From NCBI RefSeq assembly GCF_036507355.1, contig NZ_AP027877.1: a stretch of DNA of 64,000 nucleotides; one strand, written 5' to 3'. Position numbers and translations under genes: made by a program. This DNA comes from Escherichia coli. GTDB lineage: Bacteria > Pseudomonadota > Gammaproteobacteria > Enterobacterales > Enterobacteriaceae. The notes beneath the pieces were generated by a model. The model searched no databases and had not been told where the DNA came from. It saw only the letters and a list, made by a program, of their open reading frames with translations. Below, piece after piece: positions 1-15,393 of the stretch. How positions within the stretch are numbered: position 1 is the first letter of the stretch; each line of letters opens with the position of its first letter.

Positions 1-2411
1 TTATCTTTCAGCATCAGCCCCCATTGGCACTGAGTCAGCGCCCGGAGAAATAGTCTGACTAAAATATCATCACTACGTTTGCTTCCGACTTTTAGTTTCA
101 TATCAGAAAACACCGTCCGGCAATAGAGAAAATCACACCAGTCATCCCAGTCAGCCAGGGTCTTCAGTGTATGCGTTTGCCGCCAGTCGTCGAAAAGGGA
201 GCGTTGCTGCAGAGCCTCTTCCATATTATCCCACGGGCGGGAAAACATCAGTAGATGCCCTTCATTCATGGCGGGCCGTACGGGCTGGCGTTTGAAATCG
301 AATTCCAGATTAAGACGGATATCCTGTTCCCGGGATACCAGATCGCTTTCCGAGAGCCACATCTCACGCGTTGATATCAACGTACTTCGGGATAACGTCT
401 GACCGGGTAAACGATTAAGGTAAAGATCTACCATATAGTCGTTATAGTCACTGCGTGGAATATCGGCAGGAGGTTTGACGCCAGCCCTGGCATGAACAAC
501 AGGTTTTCCCTGAATCGCTTTATAGGTTAACTGCCCCCGGGTTTTCATGGCGATAAGCTGGCTGACCTCATGCTTACATGTCAACATTGATGAACCCGGA
601 TCAACAATATCGCACAGCGACTGGAAGCGGGAAGACAGTGGACCGCTCATGTTTATCTTGTCAAGTGGGCAATTTGTCAAAAAACCATCGGTTGTGACGC
701 TGACAACCGATGAATCAGAAGGCAAAGCATTCATGAGTTCCCCGACAACGGCGCGGATAAATCCCGTCACATGCGCAGCAAAGAATGGCTGAGTAACCGA
801 TGATGGTGGGAGGGATCTGTTTAATCCACGGGCAGTATCAAAGGCGGTTTTGGCGCGAAGGCCCTGAGCAAGTTTGCCATAAAGCGAGTTGCCAATTTCT
901 TTCCAGAATTTCTCCTCCAAAGAACCCTTAATATGGCGATTACGGTTCTCACGGACCTGTTGAACAAAGGGAAGAAACACCGATGTTGATTCGCTGTTAT
1001 GTGGGGAGGTGTCACAGATCCAGGGGACGATGATCCCATTATGGATCGTCATCTCTGCCCCGAGCGACAGAGCAAGTTCGATTTCAGGTGCCGTTGCCCA
1101 TGATTCGCCACTTAATGGAAAGAATAACCCATATTGATCGGTCCGAACCGGCAGGCTGGGATAGGGAACTGATTCCGGGAACCGAAATGTGACAAGCGCA
1201 AATCCCATCACATGCCCACAGTAATCGTCCGGATTTTTACTGAGGCGGATGTTTCCGTAATCGGGTATGAGGATATCTAATAGCCCGGTGGTATACGCTC
1301 CAGCCAGATCGTAGTCATACCAGTGATCAGACGGTGTAACCCCCATCATAAAACACTCATTGCGTCCGCCGTGGTAACAGTTGATCGGGAACGTTTCAAA
1401 CAACTCTCTTGAAGGAACACTGGCGGGGTTTTTAATCGTCCGGAATGCCTGTTTCTCCGTGAGCCAGAGTTCACGGGTTTTAATGTGTGTCCCAAGGCAG
1501 ACTTCAGGAGACATATTGTTTTCTTTAAGTGTTTTGGTGAACCGTGAAACTGCCATCGCCCCGATGGTGGCGGGGACACGATCAATCATCAGCTCCCGGG
1601 CGCAAAAATTGCGAACCTGTAAAGCATAACGAACCGCAATCTCGGCATCCCGCAGAGCATAGGCTTCAAACCCTGCTCTGTCGCCCAGAAGATATTCACG
1701 CATATTGGTTATGGAATAAGGTGCAGGAATGGTGAGTTTGGGAAGACCCAGTAATTCACCACATTCAGCCAGACCCATACCCCCGGGAGTGATAAGCAGT
1801 GTATCGATGAAAGCTACGTTACTGCAACGCGGAGGGGAAGTTCGTTTGTCAAACATTATCTGTTCAGTCTTTACGCGACGTTCCTGCTGTTCATCAAAAT
1901 CGATACCGTAACGATTTTTGAAGCTGCTGACAGTACCGCGTATTCCTTTCAGAAGAATTTTGTAGTCTGACCAGAAATTGGCAAAGGAGGCGATATCCGC
2001 ACGAATGAAATGCGCATATATATTAATAATACCGGGCCATTTTGTAATCACACCCGTTTCAAGAAGCGGTGTAATCGTTTGACAGAGAAATTCCTTAAAA
2101 GACAGTCGGGATTTTTTCTGTGAGTCAGGTGGATAGATAATGTTCGATATACCAGTGTTATCGGGTAAGACGACATAACTCTGATATGACAGAATATCAT
2201 TCTGTTGTGTTTCAGGATTGAAAACATATTCGGTATCAAAACCGATATGGAGTGTCAGGTCACTTGAAATAACAGATACTTTTTTTGATGCAGGTGGTAT
2301 CACAGGATAATCATCAAGCGTTTTAGGTCTTTTAAGATTGAGCGCTGGCTCTGAAGTCACGGACTGATACCCCGAGGCGGCAGCGAGGATATCCTGCAAA
2401 TTATGGCTCAT
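1..2411 (-). CDS. Primer-independent family B DNA polymerase (piPolB), first ~803 codons; 3' end runs off the left edge
   Basis: Absent from the ORF track because no stop lies in the window. My translation of the minus strand from ATG 2411 (SD GGAG at 2418-2421) stays open to position 1. Motifs read directly: ExoI HIGFDTEYVF, ExoIII YALRDAEIA, Pol A YDYDLAGAYTTG, Pol B KEIGNSLYGKLAQG, Pol C VSVTTDGFL (TTDG codons 684-695), and AMKTRGQLTY (KTRG codons 534-545). KTRG is the piPolB-specific substitute for KxY. Confidence 0.85.
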   Translation of the reverse strand, partial: MSHNLQDILAAASGYQSVTSEPALNLKRPKTLDDYPVIPPASKKVSVISSDLTLHIGFDTEYVFNPETQQNDILSYQSYVVLPDNTGISNIIYPPDSQKKSRLSFKEFLCQTITPLLETGVITKWPGIINIYAHFIRADIASFANFWSDYKILLKGIRGTVSSFKNRYGIDFDEQQERRVKTEQIMFDKRTSPPRCSNVAFIDTLLITPGGMGLAECGELLGLPKLTIPAPYSITNMREYLLGDRAGFEAYALRDAEIAVRYALQVRNFCARELMIDRVPATIGAMAVSRFTKTLKENNMSPEVCLGTHIKTRELWLTEKQAFRTIKNPASVPSRELFETFPINCYHGGRNECFMMGVTPSDHWYDYDLAGAYTTGLLDILIPDYGNIRLSKNPDDYCGHVMGFALVTFRFPESVPYPSLPVRTDQYGLFFPLSGESWATAPEIELALSLGAEMTIHNGIIVPWICDTSPHNSESTSVFLPFVQQVRENRNRHIKGSLEEKFWKEIGNSLYGKLAQGLRAKTAFDTARGLNRSLPPSSVTQPFFAAHVTGFIRAVVGELMNALPSDSSVVSVTTDGFLTNCPLDKINMSGPLSSRFQSLCDIVDPGSSMLTCKHEVSQLIAMKTRGQLTYKAIQGKPVVHARAGVKPPADIPRSDYNDYMVDLYLNRLPGQTLSRSTLISTREMWLSESDLVSREQDIRLNLEFDFKRQPVRPAMNEGHLLMFSRPWDNMEEALQQRSLFDDWRQTHTLKTLADWDDWCDFLYCRTVFSDMKLKVGSKRSDDILVRLFLRALTQCQWGLMLKD

Positions 2412-2422
2412 AGTTAACTCCG

Positions 2423-2450
2423 AAAAAATGCCGGGAGCTGTGTCCCGGCA
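2423..2450 (-). terminator. Intrinsic-terminator-like hairpin between orf212 and piPolB
   Basis: Minus strand reads UGCCGGGA-CACAGC-UCCCGGCA (8-bp GC-rich stem, 6-nt loop) followed directly by UUUUUU (2428-2423). The U-tract abuts the piPolB Shine-Dalgarno. Confidence 0.5.
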
Positions 2451-2457
2451 TAAAGAA

Positions 2458-3096
2458 TCAAGATTTAATAACATTTACTACAGATTTGAAAATATCGGTT
2501 TTGCGTGATTCATCATCTACATGGATAAAGGAAACGAGTTTCCTGCCTGCTTTAATCAGGATACCGCGTTGCGTCTTTTCCACAGACGGGGTAACGTGTG
2601 CAGATAACAGACAATGTTCATGTAAATGAAGAAACTTTTTTGAGGCGTAGCCGCCATGTAATCGGGCTTGAATGTCAAGATACATATCATCAAGAGAACC
2701 GGGTTCTCCTGATTCACTCAATACCGGATAACCCTTCTTATCAAAGAGGTTAAGGATAGATTTACTATCATGTTCGAACAGGGTAACACCGTAAATGTAT
2801 TTCATTCGAAAGGTGAGGGAATCGGTGGTGTAGACCTCCTCCTGACGATTGAAATTTTTGAGACGCCTGGCTAATTCATTAAAAACAGCACGAGCAGTAG
2901 CCGTGTCCTGCAGGGTGTAGGTATAAAGTACGAAGCCATCTGTGCCGATGAGCTTTACTAAGTTGTCCATAATCGTGATAGCGAGAACTAATGCAAAGGA
3001 TAGATATTTTTCATCGTTGTCTACAGCTGTGTTTGCTGCTTCAGGAAGAATGTTCAGTGCATTATTAGCATTATTTGCTGTGTTCTTAGTAACCAT
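2458..3096 (-). CDS. Hypothetical protein (212 aa), recombination/replication module of the element
   Basis: Intact ORF co-oriented with int, xis and piPolB. Its start overlaps the xis stop by 11 nt. It has an Asn/Ala-rich N-terminus and no motif I can assign. Confidence 0.6.
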   Translation of the reverse strand: MVTKNTANNANNALNILPEAANTAVDNDEKYLSFALVLAITIMDNLVKLIGTDGFVLYTYTLQDTATARAVFNELARRLKNFNRQEEVYTTDSLTFRMKYIYGVTLFEHDSKSILNLFDKKGYPVLSESGEPGSLDDMYLDIQARLHGGYASKKFLHLHEHCLLSAHVTPSVEKTQRGILIKAGRKLVSFIHVDDESRKTDIFKSVVNVIKS

Positions 3097-3286
3097 TTAT
3101 ATCACCTTTAAGTTTGTTTTGACGATGTGCATTTTCCCACTCAACAATATCATCAAGAGAGAATCGTATAGCCCGCCCAATTCTGATGAAGGGCGGGAGT
3201 TTTCCGGGGTTGCGCGATATATCTGACGCAACCGTGGATGCAGAAAGATTAAATCTTTCTGCGAACTGCTTAATGGTTAAATACAT
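3086..3286 (-). CDS. AlpA/MerR-like helix-turn-helix excisionase / transcriptional regulator (66 aa)
   Basis: The small protein MYLTIKQFAERFNLSASTV...IRIGRAIRFSLDDIVEWE has the typical AlpA-family pattern. It lies immediately downstream of the integrase on the same strand. Confidence 0.75.
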   Translation of the reverse strand: MYLTIKQFAERFNLSASTVASDISRNPGKLPPFIRIGRAIRFSLDDIVEWENAHRQNKLKGDINGY

Positions 3287-3436
3287 AAACCTCCGGTTTC
3301 AGAGAATAAGAAGCCACGCGGATTTAATATCAATCCACATTCTGTGATGACTTAATGCAGGGCCCTGCAGAAGCATGCAATGACAATACCGTCCTTAAAC
3401 GAGTGTTGCATCAATCACGAATCACAGATCATAGGT

Positions 3437-4564
3437 TCATTTTGTGTCATAACTTTCTATGACCTGAGAAACCACTGCGTGTGATGTCGCTGCATTGTGA
3501 AAAGCGTAGCGACGGGTCGCCGTGAGTGAATGGTGATTTAGCAGATGGGAAGCGATTGCAATATCCCCGGTCGCCTGTAGTACCCGGGTGGCAAAGGTAC
3601 GGCGCAGGTCATGCATCCGCAGGTTATCAATGTTGGCATCCCGACAAATACGGGCAAAGGTTGCACGCGGATATGCCAGAGGGCGGGCATTGTCGGTTAG
3701 TTGTGGAAAAATGTAAGTTTTGCTGAGCATCAGGTCCTGCTGGCACTGGACAACTGCAATGGCTGGAAGTGCAAGTGGGCAGGTGAAAGGGTGTCCGGAC
3801 TTTGTATCAGGCAGTATGAGTTGATGCATATCCGGGTGCCAGTACTCCCATTTCAGGGTACATACCTCACCAATACGCATCCCCGTATAAAGAGCAAGCA
3901 ATATAGAATCAGCTGCCGGTGTTTGCAGCGCTGTTGCTGCGTTAATAAAGCGCGGGATTTCTGTCGCTGACAGTGTGCGATAGCGAATGTTATTTTCTTT
4001 CAGATAGCGGACATGTGACATCGGGGAATGTGTGATCCATCCAGCACGTACTGCCAGAGAGCATATTTTGGACAATATTGCGAGGATACGGTTTACTGTT
4101 GACGGACGTAATTTTTCCCGTAAGCCAGCAGCATATTGTTCTAGTTCTCCTGCCGTGATGTCGCGAAGTTGCCGCTTGCCCCAGAACGGGCGAACGTAGA
4201 GGTTGAGTTTTGACAACTCTGACTGAGGACTCTTTTTATACAACTGCAAATCCGGTAGCCACAGGTCATTGATGGCCTGTTCCACAGTGAATCGACGGGA
4301 CTGAACAGCAAGGCGATTTTTATCGGCAAGCAGGTTCATCACATGCTGACGGGCATCCTCAATGCAGAGATGAGGGAATTCACCCAGTGTTTCATATATA
4401 CGTTGATTTTTGATGGTGGCGCGAAAGGCCAGCGTGATCCGTTTTGGATATACCAGTGCACGCAGGTTTTGGCACTGAATATCACGGTATTCCTGACAAC
4501 CCGTGAGGGGATGTGGAAGTTGGTGAATTGATTTGTTGCTGAAACGCAGATCCAGAATAGGCAT
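3437..4564 (-). CDS. Tyrosine site-specific recombinase (phage-type integrase), 375 aa
   Basis: Catalytic signature read in the translation: R in YTGMRIGE, HDLRRTF (H-x-x-R), LLNHHS (H), TRRYAF (Y nucleophile). SD GGAG lies upstream of the ATG. Confidence 0.9.
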   Translation of the reverse strand: MPILDLRFSNKSIHQLPHPLTGCQEYRDIQCQNLRALVYPKRITLAFRATIKNQRIYETLGEFPHLCIEDARQHVMNLLADKNRLAVQSRRFTVEQAINDLWLPDLQLYKKSPQSELSKLNLYVRPFWGKRQLRDITAGELEQYAAGLREKLRPSTVNRILAILSKICSLAVRAGWITHSPMSHVRYLKENNIRYRTLSATEIPRFINAATALQTPAADSILLALYTGMRIGEVCTLKWEYWHPDMHQLILPDTKSGHPFTCPLALPAIAVVQCQQDLMLSKTYIFPQLTDNARPLAYPRATFARICRDANIDNLRMHDLRRTFATRVLQATGDIAIASHLLNHHSLTATRRYAFHNAATSHAVVSQVIESYDTK

Positions 4565-4706: not shown

Positions 4707-5837
4707 CTACAGTTTCATGATCTTGTTCGCTATTTTTTCGAAGTAAACCTCATTCTTAAGAAGAGTGATATTGTTAGTTTGAACACCCAGACCACTGGAG
4801 GTTGACTGGAAGTTGAGTGAACCACTTATCACGGTGGACTTTCCTGATAAAAATGAAATCAACTCCTTGGAAGATGGTGCCCACTCAGGGTTTAAGAGTA
4901 ATGCAATGTAGATATATGTCTTACGAAGCAATTGTTCGATATCTTTTTTATACCCCGTAGTGTTTTGCTTACCTTTAATGCAAATTGATTTGATTATGAA
5001 CTCATCAGGGCTGGTTAAAGGCGTTTTAAACTTATTCAGTGATCCATCGTTATGAATGACTTCATAAGGCAGCATAGATAAAATGATCAATGCAATCATT
5101 TTAGGATGATAAAGGTAGTTATCACGAATGATTTTTCCTGCCTTCATTGTATTGAGTGTTGTTTGAATAAATACAAAAAGATATTCAGAGCAAAAGTAAC
5201 AAAACACAAGCCAGGATAGGTCAATGGCTGGAATGTTAATATCCTTAGGTAGTTTGTTTAGCCAGTATTCAGACTTCAAAAAGGTCCTGATTTCAACAGT
5301 ATATTCATGCATTTTTGCGCTGAAATCAAGCATTGCTACTTGACCTGATTGTTCCGTAACTGTGTGGTCTATAAATGTTAGTGTATTGCACATTTTATCC
5401 AGCGTGTTTTGAAAACAAGAAAGGAGTTCGGCATTATTATTACCATTAACCGCAGATGAAAGTTCAGTTGCAATAAATGCATCCAGTAGCATACAGATTT
5501 TTTTCGGAATGACATTTTTACGGGATTGCTGTGAATAGAAATATACTGCCAGTAAATTAAAGGCAGTGCACTCCTTTTTTAACCATTGTTCGAGCACTGG
5601 GACGTGCTGAAAAAAATTGATATGCTTAGCAGTAGATGCTGATGGAGATAGTACATGAAGAATATCTACAGCAGGCTTCATTTGCAATATTTGATCGGAT
5701 TCGGTAGTCGTCATTAGTTCCAGTAATTGCTGTTCAGAAAATAGTTTAGACAGGTGATCAATGTCTTTTTGGTATTGGTTAAGTTTTTTTAAATTCCCCG
5801 GTACACGGGTTACATTGTTTTTCATTTTCTCGAACAT
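4707..5837 (-). CDS. Hypothetical protein (376 aa), AT-rich orphan with hydrophobic segments
   Basis: Long intact ORF with a good SD (GAGGA, 7 nt before the ATG). No recognisable catalytic motif. Hydrophobic stretches include IDLSWLVFCYFCSEYLFVFIQTTL and MIALIILSMLPYEVI. Confidence 0.6.
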   Translation of the reverse strand: MFEKMKNNVTRVPGNLKKLNQYQKDIDHLSKLFSEQQLLELMTTTESDQILQMKPAVDILHVLSPSASTAKHINFFQHVPVLEQWLKKECTAFNLLAVYFYSQQSRKNVIPKKICMLLDAFIATELSSAVNGNNNAELLSCFQNTLDKMCNTLTFIDHTVTEQSGQVAMLDFSAKMHEYTVEIRTFLKSEYWLNKLPKDINIPAIDLSWLVFCYFCSEYLFVFIQTTLNTMKAGKIIRDNYLYHPKMIALIILSMLPYEVIHNDGSLNKFKTPLTSPDEFIIKSICIKGKQNTTGYKKDIEQLLRKTYIYIALLLNPEWAPSSKELISFLSGKSTVISGSLNFQSTSSGLGVQTNNITLLKNEVYFEKIANKIMKL

Positions 5838-6239: not shown

Positions 6240-7475
6240 TTAAAAGGAAATAAACAGAGCCTTTCGCCGATGAATCAATGTGCTGATTTCCCTCAAATCA
6301 GCCTCAATACTACCAACATCACCAAAGACTTCACCTCTAATCTCACTTCGATTTTTCATGAAATTGGTGCTTAATAAGCTTTCTTTTTTTAATGCCATTA
6401 ATTTTGGTTTTATATCGTTATAGAAATGCTTACGGCTTACCCTGATGCTATGAATCGAGTAGTAAACTGTTTTATACATCAAAAATATAAGTAACTGGCC
6501 GAGAAGATATTCTTTTTCAATGTATTTATATTGAGAGGATTTTTCGCGTTTCGCCAGGTAGAAAACATGAGGTGCGATGATGGTGGGGATAAAATCCAGT
6601 GCTGGAGAGGTTTTGGTTTTTTCTGTTTCTCTTCCGGATTGAAGATGTTGAAGTACAGAGTATACAATGCTTAAAATTATGGCGTTACTTATATTATTAA
6701 TTGCAGTTGGGTAAATATGCAGATTGCTTATCAATTCTGAAAGGCAAAGTAAAACACCAGTGATGTTGGGTTTTCTGCCGGAGATTGTGGTGCTGTTGAA
6801 AATGTGACGATTCTTACGACTTATATTGACAAGTTTATGAGTGCAGAACTCTATATGTTCGACGATTTTATCTTGACTATTTTTAATGTATTTTGAAATG
6901 TTAGTGATCCGGCCATTCAACGTTAGTTCATCAAGCAATATATCATTTTTAATATTGCGAATTTCATCGCAATGTTCACATTGAGAAACTATCTCATGTA
7001 ATACATAACTCGAAGTATTGCGTGACGATGCTGATATGTAATCTAAAATGGAATGCTCGACTTTGATTTTTTGTTTGTATTTTTTAATGCACTGTTTGAT
7101 TGTTTTTTGTAGAGTATTTGAGATGTGTTTTTTATATTCTTTTAGAAAATCTTGCTCTAAAAAGAGTGAGGAGAAGATCAACTGCTGGCGAGATAATTTA
7201 ATCTCAGGCTTGATCAATTTAATCCGAAAAACTCTTCCCTCCAACTCATAGCTGAACATGGAAGATAAGTCATAGTGGGGTGATAAATGTTCGAGTAACG
7301 ACATTCGTGTATTCATTAGCCGCTTGAATTTATGGTCAGCATACATAAGTGTTTTTTTTATTTGCTCATCATAAAGTGGGCCGATAGCGCAGTTGGCAAT
7401 ACTCATTCTATCCGGAGACCTCCAGTCAGCAGGGGAATCACATTGACGGTCATCATTACTATCAAAGGGCATCAA
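6240..7475 (-). CDS. Hypothetical protein (411 aa), AT-rich orphan with Lys-rich helical N-half and hydrophobic C-half
   Basis: Long intact ORF transcribed divergently from hsdM. Segments GVLLCLSELISNL, AIILSIVYSVL, FIPTIIAPHVFYL and LLGQLLIFLMY look membrane-associated. Start is 7475 or 7472 (tandem ATG), with a weak SD. Confidence 0.55.
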   Translation of the reverse strand: MMPFDSNDDRQCDSPADWRSPDRMSIANCAIGPLYDEQIKKTLMYADHKFKRLMNTRMSLLEHLSPHYDLSSMFSYELEGRVFRIKLIKPEIKLSRQQLIFSSLFLEQDFLKEYKKHISNTLQKTIKQCIKKYKQKIKVEHSILDYISASSRNTSSYVLHEIVSQCEHCDEIRNIKNDILLDELTLNGRITNISKYIKNSQDKIVEHIEFCTHKLVNISRKNRHIFNSTTISGRKPNITGVLLCLSELISNLHIYPTAINNISNAIILSIVYSVLQHLQSGRETEKTKTSPALDFIPTIIAPHVFYLAKREKSSQYKYIEKEYLLGQLLIFLMYKTVYYSIHSIRVSRKHFYNDIKPKLMALKKESLLSTNFMKNRSEIRGEVFGDVGSIEADLREISTLIHRRKALFISF

Positions 7476-7778: not shown

Positions 7779-9302
7779 ATGAACGACAAAATCAGTCAGG
7801 ACACGATCAACAAAGCCCTGTGGGCCGCGTGTGATACGTTCCGTGGCACCATCAGTGCTGATACCTATAAAGACTTTATCCTTACCATGCTGTTCCTCAA
7901 GTACATTTCAGATGTCTGGCAGGATCACTACGACGAATATAAAGTGCAATATGGCGATGCGCCGGAACTGATTGAAGCGATGATGGCGAACGAGCGCTTC
8001 GTGTTGCCGAAAAGCGCCAGTTTCTATGCGTTGTACGAGCGACGTCATGAGCCGGGCAACGGTGAGCGTATCGATCAGGCGCTGCATGCGATTGAAGAAG
8101 CCAACGGCACCAAACTGAAAGATGCCGGGAAAAGTGTCTTCCAGGATATTTCGTTTAACACTGACCGTCTGGGCGAAGAAAAACAGAAGAACACCATCCT
8201 GCGTCAGTTGCTGGAAGACTTTGCCGGTGAAGATCTTAACCTGAAGCCAAGCCGTGTCGGTACGCTGGACGTTATCGGTAATGCTTACGAATATCTGATC
8301 AAAAACTTTGCTGCCAGCGGTGGGCAGAAAGCCGGGGAATTCTATACCCCGCCGGAAGTTTCGGACCTGATTGCTGAACTGCTCGATCCGCAACCGGGTG
8401 ATACCATCTGCGATCCGGCCTGTGGTTCGGGTTCATTGTTGATGAAGTGTGGGCGTAAAATTGTCTCCGGGCATGATAGTCGTAACTATGCATTGTTCGG
8501 TCAGGAAGCGATCGGTTCTACGTGGTCGCTGGCGAAAATGAATATGTTCCTGCACGGGGAAGACAACCATAAAATCGAGTGGGGCGATACCATTCGTAAC
8601 CCGAAGCTGCTCGATAAAAATGGCGACCTGATGCTGTTTGATATCGTGACCGCTAACCCACCGTTCAGCCTCGATAAGTGGGGCCATGACGAGGCCGAGA
8701 ACGATAAGTTTGGCCGTTTTCGTCGCGGTGTACCGCCGAAGACTAAAGGAGATTACGCTTTTATCTCGCATATGATCGAAACCCTGAAACCGGGAACTGG
8801 CCGTATGGGCGTAGTTGTGCCACACGGTGTGCTTTTCCGTGGCTCCAGCGAAGGTAAAATTCGCCAGAAACTGATCGACGAAAATTTGCTGGATGCGGTA
8901 ATTGGTCTGCCGGAAAAACTGTTCTACGGTACGGGGATTCCGGCTGCGATTCTGATTTTTAAAAAGCAGAAAGTTGATGACAAGGTGCTGTTTATCGATG
9001 CCAGCCGTGAATTCAAGGCAGGTAAAAACCAGAACCAGCTTAGCGAAGAAAACATTAAGAAAATCGTCAAGACCTACCGTGATGGCGATAACGTCGAGAA
9101 ATACGCCTATCTTGCCAGCCTGAAGGAAATTCAGGACAACGACTATAATCTCAATATCCCGCGCTATGTCGATACCTTTGAAGAAGAGGATGAGATTGAC
9201 CTGCTGGCGGTGCGAGCAGAACGCGAGCAACTGAAGGCGGAATTGGCGAAGCTGGAAACGGAGATGGCTGGATATTTGAAGGAGTTGGGTTATGGCTCGT
9301 GA
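7779..9302 (+). CDS. hsdM: Type I restriction-modification system, DNA methyltransferase subunit HsdM
   Basis: N6-adenine methylase motifs: DPACGSGSLL (AdoMet binding) and VTANPPFS (NPPF catalytic). The HsdM N-terminal domain pattern (LWAACDTFRG) is present. hsdS overlaps the 3' end by 11 nt. Confidence 0.95.
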   Translation: MNDKISQDTINKALWAACDTFRGTISADTYKDFILTMLFLKYISDVWQDHYDEYKVQYGDAPELIEAMMANERFVLPKSASFYALYERRHEPGNGERIDQALHAIEEANGTKLKDAGKSVFQDISFNTDRLGEEKQKNTILRQLLEDFAGEDLNLKPSRVGTLDVIGNAYEYLIKNFAASGGQKAGEFYTPPEVSDLIAELLDPQPGDTICDPACGSGSLLMKCGRKIVSGHDSRNYALFGQEAIGSTWSLAKMNMFLHGEDNHKIEWGDTIRNPKLLDKNGDLMLFDIVTANPPFSLDKWGHDEAENDKFGRFRRGVPPKTKGDYAFISHMIETLKPGTGRMGVVVPHGVLFRGSSEGKIRQKLIDENLLDAVIGLPEKLFYGTGIPAAILIFKKQKVDDKVLFIDASREFKAGKNQNQLSEENIKKIVKTYRDGDNVEKYAYLASLKEIQDNDYNLNIPRYVDTFEEEDEIDLLAVRAEREQLKAELAKLETEMAGYLKELGYGS

Positions 9303-10566
9303 TTCGCTTTACCCAGTGAGCGTTAAAGCTGGAAAACCGATCCTTGGAATGCTACCTACAGGATGGCAAAAGTTATCATTAGAAAAGTGCTTAAATATAG
9401 AGGCAAGAAAGGCATATATACAAGATAATCAAGAGTATGACTTAGTTACAGTAAAGCGCTCCAGAGGTGGCGTAATAAGACGTGAGCATCTTAAAGGAAA
9501 AGATATCTCCGTAAAAAGTCAATTCTATATTAAAGAAGGCGACTTTCTCATATCAAAACGACAAATTGTGCACGGTGCTTGCGGTCTTGTACCTAAAGAA
9601 CTTTCTGGCTCAATTGTATCGAATGAATATTGTGTGCTTACAGGGAAGTCCGGTTTTTATCTTCCTTATATGGAATTTCTATCGGAGTCTCTATATTTCC
9701 AGCAAACCTGCTTCCACTCTAGCATTGGTGTGCACATAGAGAAAATGATTTTTAAGTTAGATAGTTGGTTTAAGTGGCCATTTAATATCCCCCCACTGTC
9801 TGAACAAAAGAGAATCGTTAAAATCCTGTCAACCTGGGATAAGGCGATTTCGGTGACGGAAAAGCTTCTCACCAACAGTCAGCAGCAGAAAAAAGCCCTG
9901 ATGCAGCAATTGCTTACCGGGAAAAAACGCTTGCTGGATGAGAGGGGGGTGAGGTTTAGTGGGGAGTGGAAGAGAGTAAAACTGGGTGCGATAGCCGATA
10001 TGAACAGTGGAGGTACTCCGAAATCAACGGTTGAAGAGTATTATGGCGGGAATATCCCATGGGTATCTATTTCTGATATGACATCTAATGGAAAGTGGAT
10101 TGCTACAACTGAAAAATATCTGACTGAATTAGGATTGAACAGTTCATCCGCAAGAATATATCCAAAAAACTCGGTTCTTTATGCTATGTATGCTTCTATA
10201 GGTGAATGCAGCATTGCTGCTGTAAATTTAACATCTTCGCAGGCAATCTTGGGTATTAGACCAAAAGATTGTTTAAATTATGAGTTTTTATATTTCTATC
10301 TTACATCATTAAAAGAAAAAATAAAACTGCAAGGCCAGCAAGGTACACAGTCCAACCTAAACGCCGGAATGGTTAAAGAGTTTGAACTAGACTTACCCAG
10401 TATAAGAGAACAACAAAAAATCGCCGCCGTCCTGTCCGTCGCCGATGCCGAAATCTCCACGCTGGAGAAAAAACTCGCCTGCCTGAGAGATGAGAAAAAA
10501 GCCCTGATGCAACAGCTACTGACTGGCAAACGTCGTGTTAAGGTCGATGAGGCGGTTGCCGAATGA
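9292..10566 (+). CDS. hsdS: Type I R-M specificity subunit HsdS (two target-recognition domains)
   Basis: Two AT-rich variable halves are separated and followed by conserved helical repeats: QQKKALMQQLLTGKKRL and DEKKALMQQLLTGKRRV. Position is between hsdM and hsdR. Confidence 0.9.
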   Translation: MARDSLYPVSVKAGKPILGMLPTGWQKLSLEKCLNIEARKAYIQDNQEYDLVTVKRSRGGVIRREHLKGKDISVKSQFYIKEGDFLISKRQIVHGACGLVPKELSGSIVSNEYCVLTGKSGFYLPYMEFLSESLYFQQTCFHSSIGVHIEKMIFKLDSWFKWPFNIPPLSEQKRIVKILSTWDKAISVTEKLLTNSQQQKKALMQQLLTGKKRLLDERGVRFSGEWKRVKLGAIADMNSGGTPKSTVEEYYGGNIPWVSISDMTSNGKWIATTEKYLTELGLNSSSARIYPKNSVLYAMYASIGECSIAAVNLTSSQAILGIRPKDCLNYEFLYFYLTSLKEKIKLQGQQGTQSNLNAGMVKEFELDLPSIREQQKIAAVLSVADAEISTLEKKLACLRDEKKALMQQLLTGKRRVKVDEAVAE

Positions 10567-11246
10567 AACTGACGAAAAGCGGTCCACTGACTGACCGGGA
10601 AATCGACTGGCTGGAAGAAATATTAATGAAGTATGGAATGGATGATTCTGTACTCTGTTTCTCTGAGCTGGATGGATTGCTGACGGCGATTTTATCAGGT
10701 CCAAATATGGTTTCACCCAATATCTGGCTGAGTGCTATTTGGGGAGGAGGCGATTATCATCCGAAATGGTCATCTGAGAGAGAGATGGAGCGTTTTGTCA
10801 GTCTGTGTTTTCAGCATATGAACGATATCGCTGGTTGCCTTTATGACGCCCCTGAACTGTTTGAGCCGATTTTCAATGAGCGTGAGGTAAAGGGGGAAAA
10901 ATATACCATTGTGGAAGAGTGGTGTTTTGGTTATATGAAAGGAAAGTCACTGGATGACTGGTCTGGTCTTCCCGGTGAGTTACGGCCTTCTCTGGAAGTG
11001 ATCGCTCTTCATGGCGTGGAGAAGAATTTTCCTGTACTTGAGAAAATGACCAGAGAGCAGTTTGAGAAAAGTATTTCCCTTATTAAGCCTGCTGCACTGG
11101 CACTTTATCAGTACTGGTTGTCAGTGAGAATGTCAGAGGCATCATCCCGGCCTGTTCCAGTGAAGGGGGCAGAAAACATGCCCGGGCGAAATGACCCGTG
11201 TCCGTGTGGCAGCGGTAAAAAATTTAAGAAGTGCTGTCTGCATTGA
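10563..11246 (+). CDS. YecA-like (UPF0149) protein with C-terminal SEC-C metal-binding motif, embedded in the type I R-M operon
   Basis: Collinear with chromosomal YecA (20141-20806) along its whole length, with roughly half the residues identical by eye. The C-terminus [20 protein letters not shown] is a SEC-C zinc/iron-binding motif. Its ATG overlaps the hsdS stop (ATGA). Confidence 0.85.
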   Translation: MKLTKSGPLTDREIDWLEEILMKYGMDDSVLCFSELDGLLTAILSGPNMVSPNIWLSAIWGGGDYHPKWSSEREMERFVSLCFQHMNDIAGCLYDAPELFEPIFNEREVKGEKYTIVEEWCFGYMKGKSLDDWSGLPGELRPSLEVIALHGVEKNFPVLEKMTREQFEKSISLIKPAALALYQYWLSVRMSEASSRPVPVKGAENMPGRNDPCPCGSGKKFKKCCLH

Positions 11247-11295
11247 TGAATCTTCATGTGACCAGTAGCGAGTAGCGCCAGAAAGAAAAGGATTA

Positions 11296-14200
11296 ATGAT
11301 GAACCAGACGTACACGCCTAAATTCCAGGAAGAATACAGCGCCAAAATTCCGGCACTGACGTTACTGACCAGCCTCGGCTGGACGTTTTTATCTCCGAAA
11401 CAGATTATGGATTACCGGGGCTATAAACAGGATGAGGTGGTGCTGCGTCCGGTTCTGCGTGAAGAGCTGTCGAAGCGTTCCTTTATGGCGGGTGGCAAAA
11501 CCTGCCAGTTATCGGAAAAAGCACTGGATAACCTGATATCACAGGTCTGTTCTCCGGCGCTGAATGAAGGGCTGCTCAAAGCCAATGAACGGATGTATAA
11601 CCATCTGCTCTACGGTATCGCCGTCACGGAGTTTGTCGATGGCAAGAAGGTGAACCCCACCATTGCGCTGATCGACTGGGAACATCCGGAAAGTAACCAG
11701 TTCCATTTTACCGAAGAATTTACGGTATTGCGGTCAGGCGGTGTCGAAACCCGCAGGCCGGATATTGTGTGTTTTGTGAATGGTATCCCGCTGGCCGTCA
11801 TTGAAGCGAAAAGCCCGGCGGGTCACGGCAAGAAAGGGCCAACCATTGACGAAGGGATATCCCAGAGTATCCGCAATCAGCTCAACGACGAAATCCCGCA
11901 GCTGTTTGCTTACAGCCAGATATTACTGTCGATTAACGGGCATGACGGGCGCTACGGTACCTGTCATACACCAATGAAATTCTGGGCGGCATGGCGCGAA
12001 GAAGATATTACTTACGCGCAGATGTATGCGCTGCGCAACCATAAGTTATCGACTGAACAAATTCATGCGTTGTTTGATGATCGTCCTTCAGTCGATCTCA
12101 AATGGTATCAACAGTTAATCGATGGGGGGGAACTGGCAGTCAGCGGGCAGGATAAGCTGCTCATCAGTCTGCTTTCACCGGAACGTCTGCTGGAGATGAC
12201 CCGCTTCTTCACCCTGTTTGATAAAAAAACCGGAAAAATTGTTGCCCGCTATCAGCAGGTGTTCGGTATTAAAAGACTGCTGGAACGCATCAGTACCCGC
12301 AGACCAGACGGGGGCAGGGAAGGTGGGGTGATCTGGCATACCACGGGGTCAGGTAAATCTTACACCATGGTATTCCTCAGCAAGGCGCTGATTCTTCATG
12401 ACAGCCTGAAGCAGTGTCGTATTGTGGTGGTGACGGACCGCGTGGACCTTGAAGGGCAGCTCAGCGGCACTTTTGTCTCTGGTGGCGAACTGGCAGGGAA
12501 GGATGATAAGGCCAAAGCGATGGCAACCTCAGGTCAGAAGCTGGCACAGCAGATTGGCTCTGGTAAAGAACGTATAATCTTTACCCTTATCCAGAAATTT
12601 AACTCAGCGACAAAATTGCCTGAATGCGTCAACACCAGCCCCGACATCATCGTTCTGATTGATGAAGGACACCGTAGCCAGGGTGGTGAGAACCATGTGC
12701 GAATGAAACTGGCACTGCCGAACGCCGCCTTTGTGGCATTTACTGGTACGCCATTGCTAAAAGAAGATAAGACCACCAATAAATTCGGGCCGATTGTCCA
12801 CGCTTATACCATGCAGCGAGCGGTAGAAGATAAAGCCGTTACACCTTTGCTGTATGAAGAACGTATTCCCGACCTTGAGGTTAACGATCGGGCAATAGAT
12901 GCCTGGTTTGATCGTATTACCGATGGGTTAAGCGAAGCGCAAAAAGCCGACCTTAAGCGTAAATATGCCCGTAAAGGTGAGGTTTATAGTGCAGATGATC
13001 GCATCCGTCTGATCGCACTCGATATCGCCACGCACTTCTCGAAGAATATTGATGAGGGGCTGAAAGGCCAGCTTGCCTGCGACAGCAAGATTTCCGCCAT
13101 CAAATATAAAAAGTATCTTGATGAAGCCGGGTTGTTTGAGTCAGCAGTAGTTATCAGCCCGCCGGATACCCGGGAAGGGAATACCGAAGTGGATGAAAGC
13201 AAACTGCCGGAAGTGACGAAATGGTGGAAGGATAATGTCGGCACGCAGGATGAGTCTGTGTATACCCGTAATATCATCAGTCGTTTCGATACCGATGAGA
13301 AGCTCAAATTGCTGATAGTCGTTGATAAACTGCTCACCGGGTTTGATGAGCCGAAGAATACCGTGCTGTATATCGACAAGCCGCTTAAGTCCCACAACCT
13401 TATCCAGGCGATTGCGCGGGTGAACCGACTGCATCCACTAAAAAAGTTCGGTCTGCTGATTGATTATCGCGGTATTCTGGCTGAGCTGGACACGACTATC
13501 GGCAAATATCAGGACCTCGCCTCCCGAACTCAGGGCGGATACGATATCAAAGATATTGACGGGCTGTACAGCGCCATGAGCTCTGAATACAAGCGCCTGC
13601 CGCATCTGTATAACCAGCTGTGGGCCATATTTGCCGGTGTTAAAAACAAAAATGATACTGAGCAGTTACGTGCGGTACTGGTGCCTAAAATGGAAGAACG
13701 TGACGGAGAGATGGTCGATATCCATCAGAAAACCCGTGATGATTTCTTCGAGGCGTTAACGGCCTTTGCCGGATGCCTGAAAGTGGCACTGCAGTCCGCT
13801 ACCTTCTTCACCGACAAGAGCTTTACGGAACAAGACCGAAATCTCTATAAAGAAACCGTAAAACAGATGTCCAGCCTGCGCCAGTGGGCGATGCAGGTAA
13901 GTGGAGAGCAGGTCAATTATGACGACTACGCTGAGCAGGTGAAAAAACTGCTGGATAAGCATGTCACCGGCGTTGAGGTTCGTGAACCGGATGGCGTGTA
14001 TGAAGTCGGTAAAATGGGCAAGAGCGAAAAGCCCGAAGAGTGGGACAACAATAAAACCCGCAATGAAACCGACATCATTAAAACCCGCGTGACGAAGATG
14101 ATTGAGCAGGAATTGCGTGATGACCCGTATGCTCAGGAGGCATTTTCAAAACTCCTGCGTATGGCTATCGAAGAGGCTGAAAAACTGTTTGACCATCCGC

Positions 14201-14583
14201 TGAAACAGTACCTTTTGTTCCGTGAATTTGAAGAACAGGTTGAAGCCCGTAAGCTCAGCGATATCCCGGATGCACTGGCGGTAAACAAGCATGCTCAGGC
14301 GTATTACGGTGTATTTAAAAAAGAGCTACCTGAGGTTTTTGCGGTAAACGACGTTCAGGTGCAGGATAAGTGGACCAAGCTGGCTTTTGAAGTGGACAAC
14401 ATTATCGTCAAAGCGGTGGCAGAAAACTCCCTGAACCCCCAGGACATTGAGAAAGTCGTTAAGACAAGTCTGCTACCACTGCTGTTTACGGCCTGCCGGG
14501 AAATTGGTGCCGGAATGAATCAGGTTAACCGTATTGTGGAAACCATCATCCAGATACTGCGCGTTGGTTTGATGAAATCATGA
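11296..14583 (+). CDS. hsdR: Type I R-M restriction/translocase subunit HsdR (1095 aa)
   Basis: N-terminal PD-(D/E)xK nuclease motif (RPDIVCFVNGIPLAVIEAKSP). SF2 helicase motif I is TTGSGKSYT and motif II is VLIDEGHRSQ. Operon context with hsdM/hsdS. Confidence 0.95.
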   Translation: MMNQTYTPKFQEEYSAKIPALTLLTSLGWTFLSPKQIMDYRGYKQDEVVLRPVLREELSKRSFMAGGKTCQLSEKALDNLISQVCSPALNEGLLKANERMYNHLLYGIAVTEFVDGKKVNPTIALIDWEHPESNQFHFTEEFTVLRSGGVETRRPDIVCFVNGIPLAVIEAKSPAGHGKKGPTIDEGISQSIRNQLNDEIPQLFAYSQILLSINGHDGRYGTCHTPMKFWAAWREEDITYAQMYALRNHKLSTEQIHALFDDRPSVDLKWYQQLIDGGELAVSGQDKLLISLLSPERLLEMTRFFTLFDKKTGKIVARYQQVFGIKRLLERISTRRPDGGREGGVIWHTTGSGKSYTMVFLSKALILHDSLKQCRIVVVTDRVDLEGQLSGTFVSGGELAGKDDKAKAMATSGQKLAQQIGSGKERIIFTLIQKFNSATKLPECVNTSPDIIVLIDEGHRSQGGENHVRMKLALPNAAFVAFTGTPLLKEDKTTNKFGPIVHAYTMQRAVEDKAVTPLLYEERIPDLEVNDRAIDAWFDRITDGLSEAQKADLKRKYARKGEVYSADDRIRLIALDIATHFSKNIDEGLKGQLACDSKISAIKYKKYLDEAGLFESAVVISPPDTREGNTEVDESKLPEVTKWWKDNVGTQDESVYTRNIISRFDTDEKLKLLIVVDKLLTGFDEPKNTVLYIDKPLKSHNLIQAIARVNRLHPLKKFGLLIDYRGILAELDTTIGKYQDLASRTQGGYDIKDIDGLYSAMSSEYKRLPHLYNQLWAIFAGVKNKNDTEQLRAVLVPKMEERDGEMVDIHQKTRDDFFEALTAFAGCLKVALQSATFFTDKSFTEQDRNLYKETVKQMSSLRQWAMQVSGEQVNYDDYAEQVKKLLDKHVTGVEVREPDGVYEVGKMGKSEKPEEWDNNKTRNETDIIKTRVTKMIEQELRDDPYAQEAFSKLLRMAIEEAEKLFDHPLKQYLLFREFEEQVEARKLSDIPDALAVNKHAQAYYGVFKKELPEVFAVNDVQVQDKWTKLAFEVDNIIVKAVAENSLNPQDIEKVVKTSLLPLLFTACREIGAGMNQVNRIVETIIQILRVGLMKS

Positions 14584-15335
14584 GTGAAAAAGAATCGCCA
14601 TCAATGAAAGCGTTACGCATTGTCTATGGTGATGATGTCATCACCGTACAGTGTGTTCCGCGTCAGGTCGTAAAGGGCAGGGTGCTCATCAAGGTTTATC
14701 CGGACTGCCGGGTTGTGGCCTCTGTACCGCCTGAAACACCGGAGCACGAGGTATTGTCTGCGCTGAAAAAAAGAGGGCGCTGGATATACCAGCAACTGCG
14801 TGATTTCAGGGAGCAACAGACACACATTGTTCCGCGTCAGTATGTCAGCGGAGAAAGCCATTATTATCTCGGTAAGCAATATCAGTTGAAAGTGACAGAA
14901 GACGCTACTGTGCCGCAACGAGTGAAAATGTTGCGTGGGCGTCTGGAAGTGACTGTCAGACACAAATCGGCAGAAAAGATTAAAGCCTTGCTGGCTGAAT
15001 GGTATCGGGAACGTGCCAGAGATGTTTTTCAGCGCAGGCTTGATTTACTGATTCCGCAGACCCTTTGGGTCAGTGAGCGTCCTCCGATACGTCTGCGGGC
15101 GATGCAAACGCAATGGGGCAACTGTTCAGCAAAAGGCTGTCTGACCCTGAATCCATGGCTGGTTAAGGCATCCTCAGAATGTATCGATTATGTTTTGCTA
15201 CATGAGTTATGCCATGTGGCTGAGCACAACCACAGCGAGGAGTTTTACCGTCTGATGGGGCAGGTTATGCCTGGGTGGGAAAAGGTCAAGAAACGACTGG
15301 ATGGGATGGCTGGGATGTTGTTGGCTGATATGTAA
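14580..15335 (+). CDS. M48/DUF45 (YgjP-like) zinc metallopeptidase coupled to hsdR
   Basis: HExxH motif in YVLLHELCHVAEHNHSEEFY, followed by a WxxxK tail typical of DUF45. The ATG overlaps the hsdR stop (ATGA). Confidence 0.85.
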   Translation: MSEKESPSMKALRIVYGDDVITVQCVPRQVVKGRVLIKVYPDCRVVASVPPETPEHEVLSALKKRGRWIYQQLRDFREQQTHIVPRQYVSGESHYYLGKQYQLKVTEDATVPQRVKMLRGRLEVTVRHKSAEKIKALLAEWYRERARDVFQRRLDLLIPQTLWVSERPPIRLRAMQTQWGNCSAKGCLTLNPWLVKASSECIDYVLLHELCHVAEHNHSEEFYRLMGQVMPGWEKVKKRLDGMAGMLLADM

Positions 15336-15393
15336 CTTATCAATATGAGTTCTTAAGGGTTTGGTCAGTCTCGTTAATGTAGGGAGTATAATA

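What the first reader, a model, noticed from the sequence alone, without database searches (positions are those of the whole stretch)
2411..2460. Intrinsic terminator placed directly against the piPolB ribosome-binding site
Seen: on the minus strand, the 46-nt gap between the orf212 stop (2458) and the piPolB ATG (2411) holds an 8-bp GC-rich hairpin (2429-2450), a U6 tract (2423-2428) and then immediately the SD GGAG (2418-2421). There is no room for a promoter between terminator and start codon. Inference: piPolB can only be expressed by read-through of this terminator from the int-xis-orf212 transcript. That would keep a potentially mutagenic, primer-independent polymerase at very low levels, or tie its expression to an antitermination or excision signal.
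Basis: inference. Interest (0 to 1): 0.5.

Follow-up and report, generated by a model that had tools for sequence, protein, structure and literature searches.

The report
Terminator hairpin abutting the piPolB start
A textbook transcription-terminator hairpin sits between a small conserved gene and the primer-independent DNA polymerase gene of this E. coli mobile element, so the polymerase can only be transcribed by read-through; the same layout recurs in most distantly related elements of this kind, but it is an ordinary type of control, not a new one.

Summary
On the minus strand the layout is: orf212 stop 2460-2458, 8-9 bp GC-rich hairpin 2451/2450-2429/2428, U6 2428-2423, GGAG 2421-2418, piPolB ATG 2411. 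It folds far better than shuffles (z -3.5). All 26 close relatives examined keep the T6-SD-ATG block, and all but one keep an intact stem.

The layout also recurs well beyond E. coli. In 23 of 30 diverged piPolB lineages (33-73% identity), a hairpin of unrelated sequence ends a median 21 nt before the start codon. In 18 of these it carries a T-run. It usually follows a small co-directional gene related to the C-terminal repeat of orf212.

Read-through dependence is therefore supported. No promoter fits in the gap, and no TSS-compatible site was found.

"Very low levels" and "antitermination" are not supported:
- The stop codon lies only 6-7 nt from the stem. Published E. coli data show that translating ribosomes almost abolish termination at that spacing.
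- There are no nut/ops/antiterminator features.
- A sister clade keeps the hairpin but has lost the U-tract.

Best reading: an operon-internal, partial, probably translation-gated terminator. It is a new member of a known kind. It has not been described for pipolins and can be tested directly.

The parts
2429..2451 (-). Terminator hairpin: 5' arm (A)UGCCGGGA 2451/2450-2443, loop CACAGC 2442-2437, 3' arm UCCCGGCA 2436-2429
   Evidence: Read directly. Top hit of the terminator scan. dG -14.5/-15.6 kcal/mol. P(pair) 0.97 in the nascent RNA. Six gap variants occur in 26 close relatives and 5 of them keep a -16 to -20 kcal/mol stem.
2423..2428 (-). U6 tract immediately 3' of the stem (the first U can close a ninth pair)
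   Evidence: Invariant in all 26 close relatives. Absent in the 72% sister clade.
2418..2421 (-). Shine-Dalgarno GGAG of piPolB, 6 nt before the ATG and 1 nt after the U-tract
   Evidence: Invariant in close relatives. The same order, T-run then GGAG/AGGA/GAGG then ATG, is seen in many distant lineages.
1..2411 (-). piPolB coding sequence (5' 803 codons; it runs off the window). Start codon at 2411-2409.
   Evidence: Open frame with PolB motifs. 99-100% identical to 866-aa E. coli proteins, including one that UniRef names primer-independent DNA polymerase PolB. RefSeq CDS starts at the same ATG.
2458..3096 (-). orf212, the conserved partner gene upstream of piPolB. Its stop codon TGA 2460-2458 lies 6-7 nt from the hairpin.
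   Evidence: No Pfam or NCBIfam match. A 31%-identical homologue occupies the same position in the 72% clade. The C-terminal repeat aligns with the small-protein family that precedes piPolB in 22 distant loci (hhalign E 8.8e-5, probability 60%). The AF2 model shows three beta3-alpha repeats.
3086..3286 (-). Excisionase-like HTH gene (xis). It overlaps the orf212 start by 11 nt, so xis and orf212 form one translationally coupled unit feeding the terminator.
   Evidence: Pfam HTH_17, E 5.9e-9. The overlap and the AGGTG SD were read.
3437..4564 (-). Tyrosine recombinase (IntP2-type integrase), upstream of xis across a 150-nt gap
   Evidence: Pfam Phage_integrase, E 1.6e-21. The IntP2-excisionase pair next to piPolB is described in PMC11551731.
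2455..2462 (-). UUGAUUCU (contains the orf212 UGA). It is predicted to pair weakly with the SD region GGAGUUAA (2421-2414) in read-through RNA.
   Evidence: MFE structure. P(unpaired) of GGAG is 0.02-0.24. The pairing is not conserved in allele B or in other lineages, so it is listed as doubtful.

Best explanation
The element is an operon-internal (intercistronic) Rho-independent terminator. It lies between the xis-orf212 unit and piPolB.

Transcription enters from a promoter upstream of xis, or possibly upstream of int. RNA polymerase meets the hairpin and U6 tract 35 nt after the orf212 stop codon. A fraction of transcripts end there. Only read-through transcripts carry the piPolB RBS, which begins 1 nt after the U-tract.

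The terminator therefore sets the ratio of the conserved small partner protein to the polymerase, and it keeps stray or untranslated transcripts out of piPolB.

In this E. coli element the stop codon is only 6-7 nt from the stem. A ribosome finishing orf212 close behind the polymerase should mask the 5' arm and suppress termination. The most likely behaviour is thus translation-gated read-through: piPolB mRNA is made roughly in proportion to how actively orf212 is being translated, rather than through a constant strong block.

Shown here: the anatomy, the folding, the lack of room for a promoter, and the conservation of the layout. Inferred: that termination occurs in vivo, how efficient it is, and the ribosome gating.
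For: Anatomy and thermodynamics.

No promoter-like site with a TSS between hairpin and SD. The best minus-strand candidate lies in the int-xis gap, near 3333-3303.

Close relatives. There are 282/5426 complete E. coli genomes with the region, plus Citrobacter, Franconibacter and Intestinirhabdus. Among 26 sequences there are six gap variants. The differences fall in the loop (a G6-G8 run, indels) or are U-A to U-G changes. T6-CGGAG-N6-ATG is invariant.

Distant relatives. Among 30 piPolB lineages (<65% identity to each other), 23 have a hairpin ending 0-60 nt before the start codon, 18 of them with >=4 T and 15 with >=5 T. The sense-strand background per 60 nt is 0.18, 0.044 and 0.021 respectively (binomial p ~2e-17). 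Other co-directional 30-150 nt gaps in the same loci give 6/23 and 3/23 (Fisher p = 0.014 and 0.005).

The common layout is stop, a median of 19 nt, hairpin, then a median of 21 nt containing the T-run and SD, then ATG. Predicted start codons agree with independent gene calls in 9 of 12 cases. The one large disagreement (L100) moves a strong terminator to 15 nt before the start.

The stems are unrelated in sequence between lineages. Within the 72% clade one pair changes U-A to C-G.

Ribosome gating: experimental TE-distance relation in E. coli (PMC4824070).

Precedents: T1 between rpsU and dnaG (PMC7863352) and internal terminators that set ABC-importer stoichiometry (PMC9045158).
Against: - No transcript data exist for any pipolin in the searchable literature. 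Termination in vivo is therefore unproven.
- The 72% sister clade (Scandinavium, Buttiauxella, Enterobacter, second Intestinirhabdus copy) keeps a -14 to -16 kcal/mol hairpin at the same place, but it is followed by CACCUGAAUAAG with no U-run. L039 has only AUUUCCCC. Something other than canonical termination may therefore be what is conserved.
- Terminator-like hairpins are not rare in short co-directional gaps of this kind of DNA: 6/23 in the loci and 2/8 in the window. The enrichment is real but only about 2-4 fold.
- One natural E. coli variant (L011) carries a stem-breaking G>A (dG -8.4), apparently tolerated.
- Plasmid pipolins of Firmicutes and Fusobacteria lack the upstream gene and have long upstream non-coding regions. 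The design is not universal.
Confidence: 0.58

Rival explanations
1. Tight terminator plus dedicated antitermination. The hairpin stops essentially all transcripts, piPolB is silent in the integrated state, and a specific factor lets polymerase through only on induction or excision. The factor could be element-encoded (orf212 itself, for instance) or a host N/Q/RfaH-like system.
Against: boxA-like and ops-like matches are at or below the chance level (26 against 31.7 expected; 55 against 40.9, none exact). No alternative antiterminator structure exists: forcing the 5' arm upstream costs 8-14 kcal/mol. No Rfam cis-regulatory family matches. The 6-7 nt stop-to-stem spacing predicts ribosome-mediated read-through without any factor (PMC4824070). 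Nothing in the orf212 model indicates RNA binding.
Confidence: 0.12
2. RNA-stability or processing hairpin. The conserved function is to protect the 3' end of the xis-orf212 mRNA, or the 5' end of a processed piPolB mRNA, from exonucleases or RNase E. This would create differential stability of the operon segments, as REP or intercistronic stem-loops do. The U-tract in the E. coli clade would be secondary.
For: The 72% clade conserves position and stability of the hairpin, including a compensatory U-A to C-G change, while lacking a U-tract. L022 and several other lineages have hairpins without adjacent T-runs. Internal terminators are reported to influence upstream transcript stability as well (PMC9045158).
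Against: In 18 of 23 lineages with a hairpin it is followed by >=4 T, often T6-T8, sometimes with an upstream A-run. That is the signature of intrinsic terminators, not of stability hairpins. In the window element the U6 is invariant among relatives. The two functions are not mutually exclusive.
Confidence: 0.15
3. DNA-level element. The inverted repeat is a protein-binding palindrome or a single-strand origin or priming site for the element's own replication by piPolB.
For: It lies next to the polymerase gene. piPolB primes well on poly-dT templates (PMC5695915).
Against: piPolB shows no strong template-sequence requirement for priming, and its discoverers propose multiple or random origins. 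The stems are unrelated in sequence between lineages, which argues against a conserved protein-recognition site. The T-run is strand-specific, lying on the sense strand 3' of the stem, as expected for an RNA signal. On the opposite strand only 3 of 30 lineages have a hairpin with >=5 T.
Confidence: 0.04
4. Ordinary operon-end terminator. xis-orf212 and piPolB are separate units, piPolB is effectively not expressed (a decaying or silent gene), and the closeness to the RBS is incidental.
For: Terminator-like hairpins occur in about a quarter of short co-directional gaps in these loci. Some E. coli pipolin piPolB genes are frameshifted or truncated (PMC11551731).
Against: piPolB is intact and highly conserved across hundreds of genomes. 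The tight spacing of about 20 nt between hairpin and start codon, together with an SD, recurs across lineages that share only 33-49% polymerase identity. That is not expected for an incidental arrangement or for a dead gene.
Confidence: 0.08

Closest known systems
[quoted passage not shown]
   Same: A conserved Rho-independent terminator inside an operon, directly upstream of a DNA-priming enzyme gene. Read-through sets the level of the downstream replication and transcription genes (PMC7863352, citing Versalovic et al. 1993). Both are partial terminators with no promoter between terminator and downstream gene.
   Different: T1 belongs to a chromosomal housekeeping operon, and that operon also has internal promoters further downstream. 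Here the context is a mobile element, the upstream gene is an orphan protein, and the hairpin is only 6-7 nt from the stop codon and 1 nt from the SD. There is no sequence relationship.
Ribosome-repressed terminators close to stop codons (lambda tR2 position series; pyrBI attenuator)
   Same: The stop codon lies within a few nucleotides of the terminator stem, so the coupled ribosome blocks hairpin folding. In E. coli, TE is <10% at 5-8 bp and ~90% at >30 bp, and the repression disappears when translation is uncoupled (PMC4824070). The window spacing is 6-7 nt. Other pipolin lineages have a median of 19 nt, which falls in the graded part of that curve.
   Different: Those are engineered constructs or short leader peptides with programmed pausing. 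Here the upstream ORF is a full 212-aa gene, and no pause site or UTP-sensing logic is evident. Gating has not been measured for this element.
Internal intrinsic terminators that set operon stoichiometry (for example downstream of SBP genes in clostridial ABC-importer operons)
   Same: A stem-loop after the first, more abundantly needed gene prematurely ends part of the transcripts, giving high upstream and low downstream expression. Some such internal terminators have U-poor tails (PMC9045158), like the 72% clade here.
   Different: The organisms and gene functions differ. Stoichiometry between orf212-type proteins and piPolB is hypothetical, because the function of orf212 is unknown.
Phage lambda tR1 upstream of the replication genes O and P, overcome by N/nut antitermination (own knowledge)
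   Same: The replication genes of a mobile element are placed behind a terminator, so replication is tied to a regulatory decision.
   Different: tR1 is Rho-dependent and is overcome by a dedicated nut/N system. No boxA/boxB or ops feature is present here, and the terminator is intrinsic.

Membership tests
Rho-independent (intrinsic) terminator | G+C-rich stem of about 5-14 bp with a short loop (3-8 nt) on the transcribed strand | tested here: met
   8-9 bp with 6 G-C pairs, loop 6 nt, dG -14.5/-15.6 kcal/mol.
Rho-independent (intrinsic) terminator | Run of U residues immediately 3' of the stem | tested here: met
   UUUUUU at 2428-2423, directly after the stem. Invariant in 26 close relatives. 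Not met in the 72% sister clade.
Rho-independent (intrinsic) terminator | Hairpin is the dominant fold of the nascent RNA when the polymerase is at the U-tract | tested here: met
   Mean pair probability 0.97-0.98 with 58-158 nt of upstream context. Competing folds are 8-14 kcal/mol worse.
Rho-independent (intrinsic) terminator | Generates RNA 3' ends in vivo or in vitro | not testable with these tools
   No transcriptome or Term-seq data for pipolin-bearing strains were found in the library.
Operon-internal partial terminator (attenuating intercistronic terminator) | Flanked by co-directional genes with no promoter between terminator and downstream start codon | tested here: met
   There are 11 nt between the U-tract and the ATG. 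No sigma-70-like site places a TSS in 2412-2428. The same tight spacing (median 21 nt) is seen in 22 lineages.
Operon-internal partial terminator (attenuating intercistronic terminator) | Measurable read-through giving lower downstream than upstream transcript level | not testable with these tools
   Requires RNA-seq, qRT-PCR or reporter fusions.
Ribosome-mediated attenuation (pyrBI type or stop-codon-proximal terminator) | Upstream ORF ends within the ribosome footprint of the terminator 5' arm (<= about 10-15 nt) | tested here: met
   The stop codon ends at 2458 and the stem starts at 2451/2450, a spacing of 6-7 nt. It is also 6-12 nt in L039, L063, L086, L048 and L052. The median over lineages is 19 nt, so this is not general.
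Ribosome-mediated attenuation (pyrBI type or stop-codon-proximal terminator) | Termination efficiency responds to translation of the upstream ORF | not testable with these tools
   Known for lambda tR2 constructs in E. coli (PMC4824070). Not measured for this element.
Leader-peptide or riboswitch-type attenuator | Mutually exclusive antiterminator structure, or a match to a known cis-regulatory RNA family | tested here: not met
   No competitive alternative fold. No Rfam match at E <= 10 other than two spurious snoRNA hits on the other strand.
Processive antitermination systems (lambda N/nut, rrn boxA, RfaH/ops) | boxA (YGCTCTTTAAC) or ops (GGCGGTAGNNTG) element upstream of the terminator on the sense strand | tested here: not met
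   boxA gives 26 matches at <= 2 mismatches against 31.7 expected. For ops the only nearby sense-strand hit (2557-2568) has 2 mismatches, including the core, and window-wide counts (55) are only marginally above the shuffle mean (40.9; largest 56).
REP or other repeated extragenic palindromes | Multiple copies of the palindrome in the genome region | tested here: not met
   A single copy in 64 kb at <= 3 mismatches.

The most novel reading that the evidence does not exclude
'Small beta-rich partner protein - terminator - piPolB' is an ancestral regulatory module of proteobacterial pipolins. In this reading the terminator is a translation-gated (or partner-protein-gated) switch, so the primer-independent polymerase is transcribed only while the excision and partner genes are being actively translated. 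That would tie replication of the element to its activation. It would also explain why pipolins appear silent and non-excising under laboratory conditions.
Probability: 0.2. Interest if true: 0.6.

Novelty: new member of a known kind. Interest (0 to 1): 0.42.

Why it matters
Pipolins are widespread defence-island-carrying elements. Their hallmark polymerase has been characterised only in vitro or by forced expression. When and how piPolB is expressed in its native context, and whether pipolins replicate at all, remain open questions.

The three main pipolin papers do not mention a promoter, a terminator or an operon structure. This work shows two things. piPolB lies behind a conserved terminator with no promoter of its own. 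It is also preceded in most proteobacterial lineages by a related small gene.

Together these give a concrete, cheap experimental handle: junction qRT-PCR, Term-seq, and reporter fusions with stem or stop-codon-position mutants. They also nominate the orf212-type protein as a functional partner of the polymerase.

For general bacterial gene regulation this is one more example of a known device, not a new principle.

Tried and rejected
1. Promoter inside the gap or overlapping the hairpin. Only weak matches were found (TTTTTT-17-CATAAT, -10 at 2405-2400). Their transcripts would start after the ATG, so this was rejected.
2. boxA/nut and ops antitermination signals are at chance level.
3. Known RNA families gave no match.
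4. REP-like repeat: there is only a single copy.
5. Antiterminator alternative fold: energetically excluded.
6. SD sequestration by pairing with the stop-codon region, which would imply translational coupling. It is predicted for this allele but is not conserved in allele B or in 15 other lineages, so it was dropped as a general mechanism.
7. Hairpin plus T-run as a piPolB priming site or origin. piPolB has no strong template requirement, and the stems are unrelated between lineages.
9. The first piPolB homologue search returned only 99-100% identical proteins and was useless for diversity. The representative search plus the metagenome scan solved this.
10. Formal covariation statistics were not attempted, because hairpins of different lineages cannot be aligned and selecting them as hairpins would make the test circular.
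11. No conserved sigma-70 promoter could be identified in the int-xis gap.
Full report
**1. The observation**

- orf212 ends with TGA at 2460-2458.
- The stem UGCCGGGA / UCCCGGCA occupies 2450-2443 and 2436-2429, with the loop CACAGC at 2442-2437.
- Six U follow at 2428-2423, then C, then GGAG at 2421-2418, six more bases, and ATG at 2411.
- A ninth A-U pair (2451-2428) is possible.

The frame from 2411 is open for 803 codons to the window edge and is a piPolB. It is 99-100% identical to 866-aa E. coli proteins, one of which UniRef names primer-independent DNA polymerase PolB. RefSeq uses the same ATG.

The site is the best of 12 terminator-like sites in the first 8 kb, where shuffles give 6.4 +/- 3.0. 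The hairpin has dG about -15 kcal/mol. The 66-nt region folds with z = -3.5, and none of 200 shuffles folds as well. The stem pairs have probability 0.97 in the nascent RNA. The sequence occurs once in the window and matches no Rfam family.

**2. Surroundings**

On the same strand the order is:
- a 376-aa orphan ORF (4707-5837);
- a tyrosine recombinase (3437-4564; Phage_integrase);
- a 150-nt gap;
- an HTH_17 excisionase (3086-3286);
- orf212 (2458-3096), which overlaps the xis stop by 11 nt and has its own AGGTG SD;
- the 46-nt gap;
- piPolB.

This is the IntP2-excisionase-piPolB arrangement described for enterobacterial pipolins (PMC11551731). Neither the tool scan nor my PWM scan finds a sigma-70-like site on this strand between 3100 and 2412 that could start a transcript downstream of the hairpin. 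With 11 nt between the U-tract and the ATG there is no room for one. Every piPolB mRNA must therefore cross the hairpin.

**3. Conservation in close relatives**

The region is present in 282 of 5426 complete E. coli genomes, always on the chromosome. It is also found in Citrobacter, Franconibacter and Intestinirhabdus.

Twenty-six sequences show six variants of the gap.
- Two main alleles differ in the loop (CACAGC against a G6-G8 run plus ACAAAC or ACGAAC) and by a U-A to U-G change at the stem base.
- Five variants fold at -16 to -20 kcal/mol.
- One (L011) has a stem-breaking G>A (-8.4 to -9.1).
- The block T6-CGGAG-TTAACT-ATG is invariant.

**4. Conservation in distant relatives**

I collected diverged piPolB loci in three steps: a scan of species-representative genomes, a representative-protein search, and a metagenome scan with a 30-sequence piPolB alignment.

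*The 72-73% identity clade.* This clade comprises Scandinavium, two Buttiauxella, an Enterobacter MAG and a second Intestinirhabdus copy. It has the same gene order and an orf212 homologue of 31% identity. At the same place it carries a different hairpin, AGCGGUGUC-GAUAUU-GACACCGCU (-14 to -16 kcal/mol), and one member has a U-A to C-G compensatory change. This hairpin is followed by CACCUGAAUAAG, so there is no U-tract.

*The wider set.* Across 57 loci below 80% identity, grouped into 30 lineages at 65% identity:
- 23 lineages have a hairpin (dG <= -7) ending 0-60 nt before the predicted start codon;
- 18 of them have >=4 T and 15 have >=5 T in the tail.

Typical examples are:
- AAGGGCCUCUAAAGAGGCCCUU-UUUUAUGGAA...AUG;
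- AAAAGCCCUGCUUCACAGCAGGGCUUUU-UUUUUGAGG...AUG;
- GACCCCUUCCCUGCAUACAGGGAAGGGGUC-AUUUUGUUUGGAG...AUG.

Several further members (L049, L050, L053, L070) have long-loop hairpins with T-runs that my finder missed. Correcting the L100 start to the database gene call places its -26.8 kcal/mol terminator 15 nt before the start.

The common layout is stop codon, a median of 19 nt, hairpin, then a median of 21 nt holding the T-run and SD, then ATG. Start predictions match independent gene calls in 9 of 12 testable cases, and 2 more differ by 3 codons.

**5. Controls**

| Comparison | Any hairpin | >=4 T | >=5 T | Source |
|---|---|---|---|---|
| piPolB upstream gap | 23/30 | 18/30 | 15/30 | |
| Sense-strand background, rate per 60 nt | 0.18 | 0.044 | 0.021 | |
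| Other co-directional gaps (30-150 nt), same loci | 11/23 | 6/23 | 3/23 | |
| Co-directional gaps in the window | 3/8 | 2/8 | 2/8 | |

- Against the sense-strand background the binomial p is about 2e-17 for >=4 T.
- Against the stricter control of other co-directional gaps, one-sided Fisher p is 0.014 for >=4 T and 0.005 for >=5 T.
- On the antisense strand of the same regions only 3 of 30 lineages show a hairpin with >=5 T.

The feature is therefore enriched about 2-4 fold over comparable gaps and is strand-specific. Intercistronic terminator-like hairpins are nevertheless not rare in this kind of DNA.

Plasmid pipolins of Staphylococcus, Fusobacterium and Limosilactobacillus lack the upstream gene and have long non-coding leaders. 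pLME300 does, curiously, have a large hairpin plus T6 touching its annotated ATG. The layout is thus typical of the integrated proteobacterial elements and is not universal.

**6. The upstream gene**

In 22 distant loci the ORF before the hairpin belongs to one family of 80-150-aa proteins. A profile-profile comparison aligns the core of that family with the C-terminal repeat of orf212 (residues 159-210; E 8.8e-5, probability 60%).

The conserved unit therefore seems to be 'small partner protein - hairpin - piPolB'. What the partner protein does remains unknown.

**7. Mechanism**

The simplest explanation is an operon-internal partial terminator. Two documented examples are T1 between rpsU and dnaG (PMC7863352) and the internal terminators that set ABC-importer stoichiometry (PMC9045158).

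- The orf212 stop codon is 6-7 nt from the stem. In E. coli, lambda tR2 placed 5-8 bp behind a stop codon was almost completely repressed by the trailing ribosome (TE <10%). TE rose gradually to ~0.9 beyond 30 bp, and the repression vanished when translation was uncoupled (PMC4824070). This terminator should therefore be leaky when orf212 is well translated and efficient on untranslated transcripts. That makes it a translation gate rather than a fixed strong block. In other lineages the spacing (median 19 nt) falls in the graded part of that curve.
- Nothing indicates factor-dependent antitermination. boxA and ops searches are at chance level, and there is no competing antiterminator fold.

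The predicted pairing of the SD with the stop-codon region in this allele is not conserved, and I do not rely on it.

The U-tract-less sister clade keeps alive a rival in which the hairpin's conserved role is RNA stability or processing. A DNA-level role is unlikely for three reasons: piPolB needs no specific template sequence (PMC5695915), the stems differ in sequence between lineages, and the T-run is strand-specific.

**8. Novelty and verdict**

Read-through dependence and conservation hold. 'Very low expression' and 'antitermination' do not follow from the evidence.

As a device this is a new member of a well-known kind. What is new is its recognition as a recurrent feature of pipolins. 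The three main pipolin papers contain no mention of a terminator or operon structure, and no promoter of the element, and no pipolin transcript data were found.

It matters mainly because it makes the open question of native piPolB expression directly testable. The decisive experiments are Term-seq or junction qRT-PCR, in vitro termination, and reporters with stem mutants or a shifted stop codon.

Noticed in passing
window 3356-3369 (both strands), in the int-xis gap: A perfect 14-bp palindrome, TGCAGGGCCCTGCA, occurs once in the window. It is conserved (TGCAGGGCCCGGCA) in the 72%-identity pipolin clade, although the rest of the gap is diverged. It could be an operator for the promoter of the xis-orf212-piPolB unit, or an RNA hairpin.
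   Followed up: partly
window 2458-3096 (-); L016 3334-3936; upstream ORFs of 22 metagenome loci (for example L022 1367-1732, L063 2426-2719): orf212 is built of three beta3-alpha repeats (AF2 pLDDT 77). Its last repeat is related to a family of 80-150-aa proteins encoded immediately upstream of piPolB in many distant pipolins (hhalign E 8.8e-5). This is a candidate conserved partner of the polymerase. It has no family annotation and only weak PH-like/LytTR-like fold matches.
   Followed up: partly
L001 4194-4243, L004, L010, L032 (E. coli allele B of the hairpin): The loop and 5' arm of the alternative hairpin allele contain a G-run whose length varies between strains (G6, G7, G8). It is a slippage-prone homopolymer inside the terminator and could modulate stem and loop geometry.
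   Followed up: no
L011 about 3955-4000 (E. coli SCPM-O-B-8794): A natural G>A substitution in the 3' arm (CCCGACAU) weakens the hairpin from about -15.6 to -8.4 kcal/mol. This provides a ready-made natural stem mutant for comparison of piPolB expression.
   Followed up: no
L010 1-446 (E. coli O145 RM10425-C1): An IS3-family element has replaced most of orf212, and the match starts at query base 33. The last part of orf212, the hairpin and an annotated piPolB are left intact. In this strain piPolB is cut off from the xis-orf212 promoter.
   Followed up: no
L107 about 585-633 (Limosilactobacillus fermentum plasmid pLME300): In this plasmid-type pipolin a long hairpin followed by T6 (GGGUCUCCUUCUUUCG...CGUAAAGAAAGGGGAC-UUUUUU) directly touches the annotated piPolB ATG, with the only SD-like GGGGA inside the 3' arm. 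The start-codon annotation was not verified.
   Followed up: no
window 7779-19704 (+) and 20868 onward: Beyond the pipolin core lies a defence cluster: type I R-M (HsdM, HsdS, HsdR), a YgjP-like peptidase, GmrSD, a PD-(D/E)XK nuclease and an Mrr-type endonuclease. From about 20.9 kb there are chromosomal-looking genes (Trp/Tyr permease, a periplasmic sugar-binding protein and an ABC ATPase). ARAGORN finds no tRNA gene anywhere in the 64 kb, so the tRNA attachment end of the element is not in this window.
   Followed up: partly
window 4707-5837 (-) and 6240-7475 (-): These are two large orphan ORFs upstream of the integrase. The 376-aa one has a 402-aa counterpart at the same position in the Scandinavium-type pipolin (L016 503-1711). 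The 411-aa one has only a sub-threshold AbiJ_NTD4 hit (E 0.006).
   Followed up: no
window 29243-29270 (+) and 56177-56201 (+): Two other co-directional intergenic gaps in the window carry terminator-like hairpins with T-runs (dG -19.2 and -16.0). This shows that intercistronic terminators are not unusual in this genome region.
   Followed up: no
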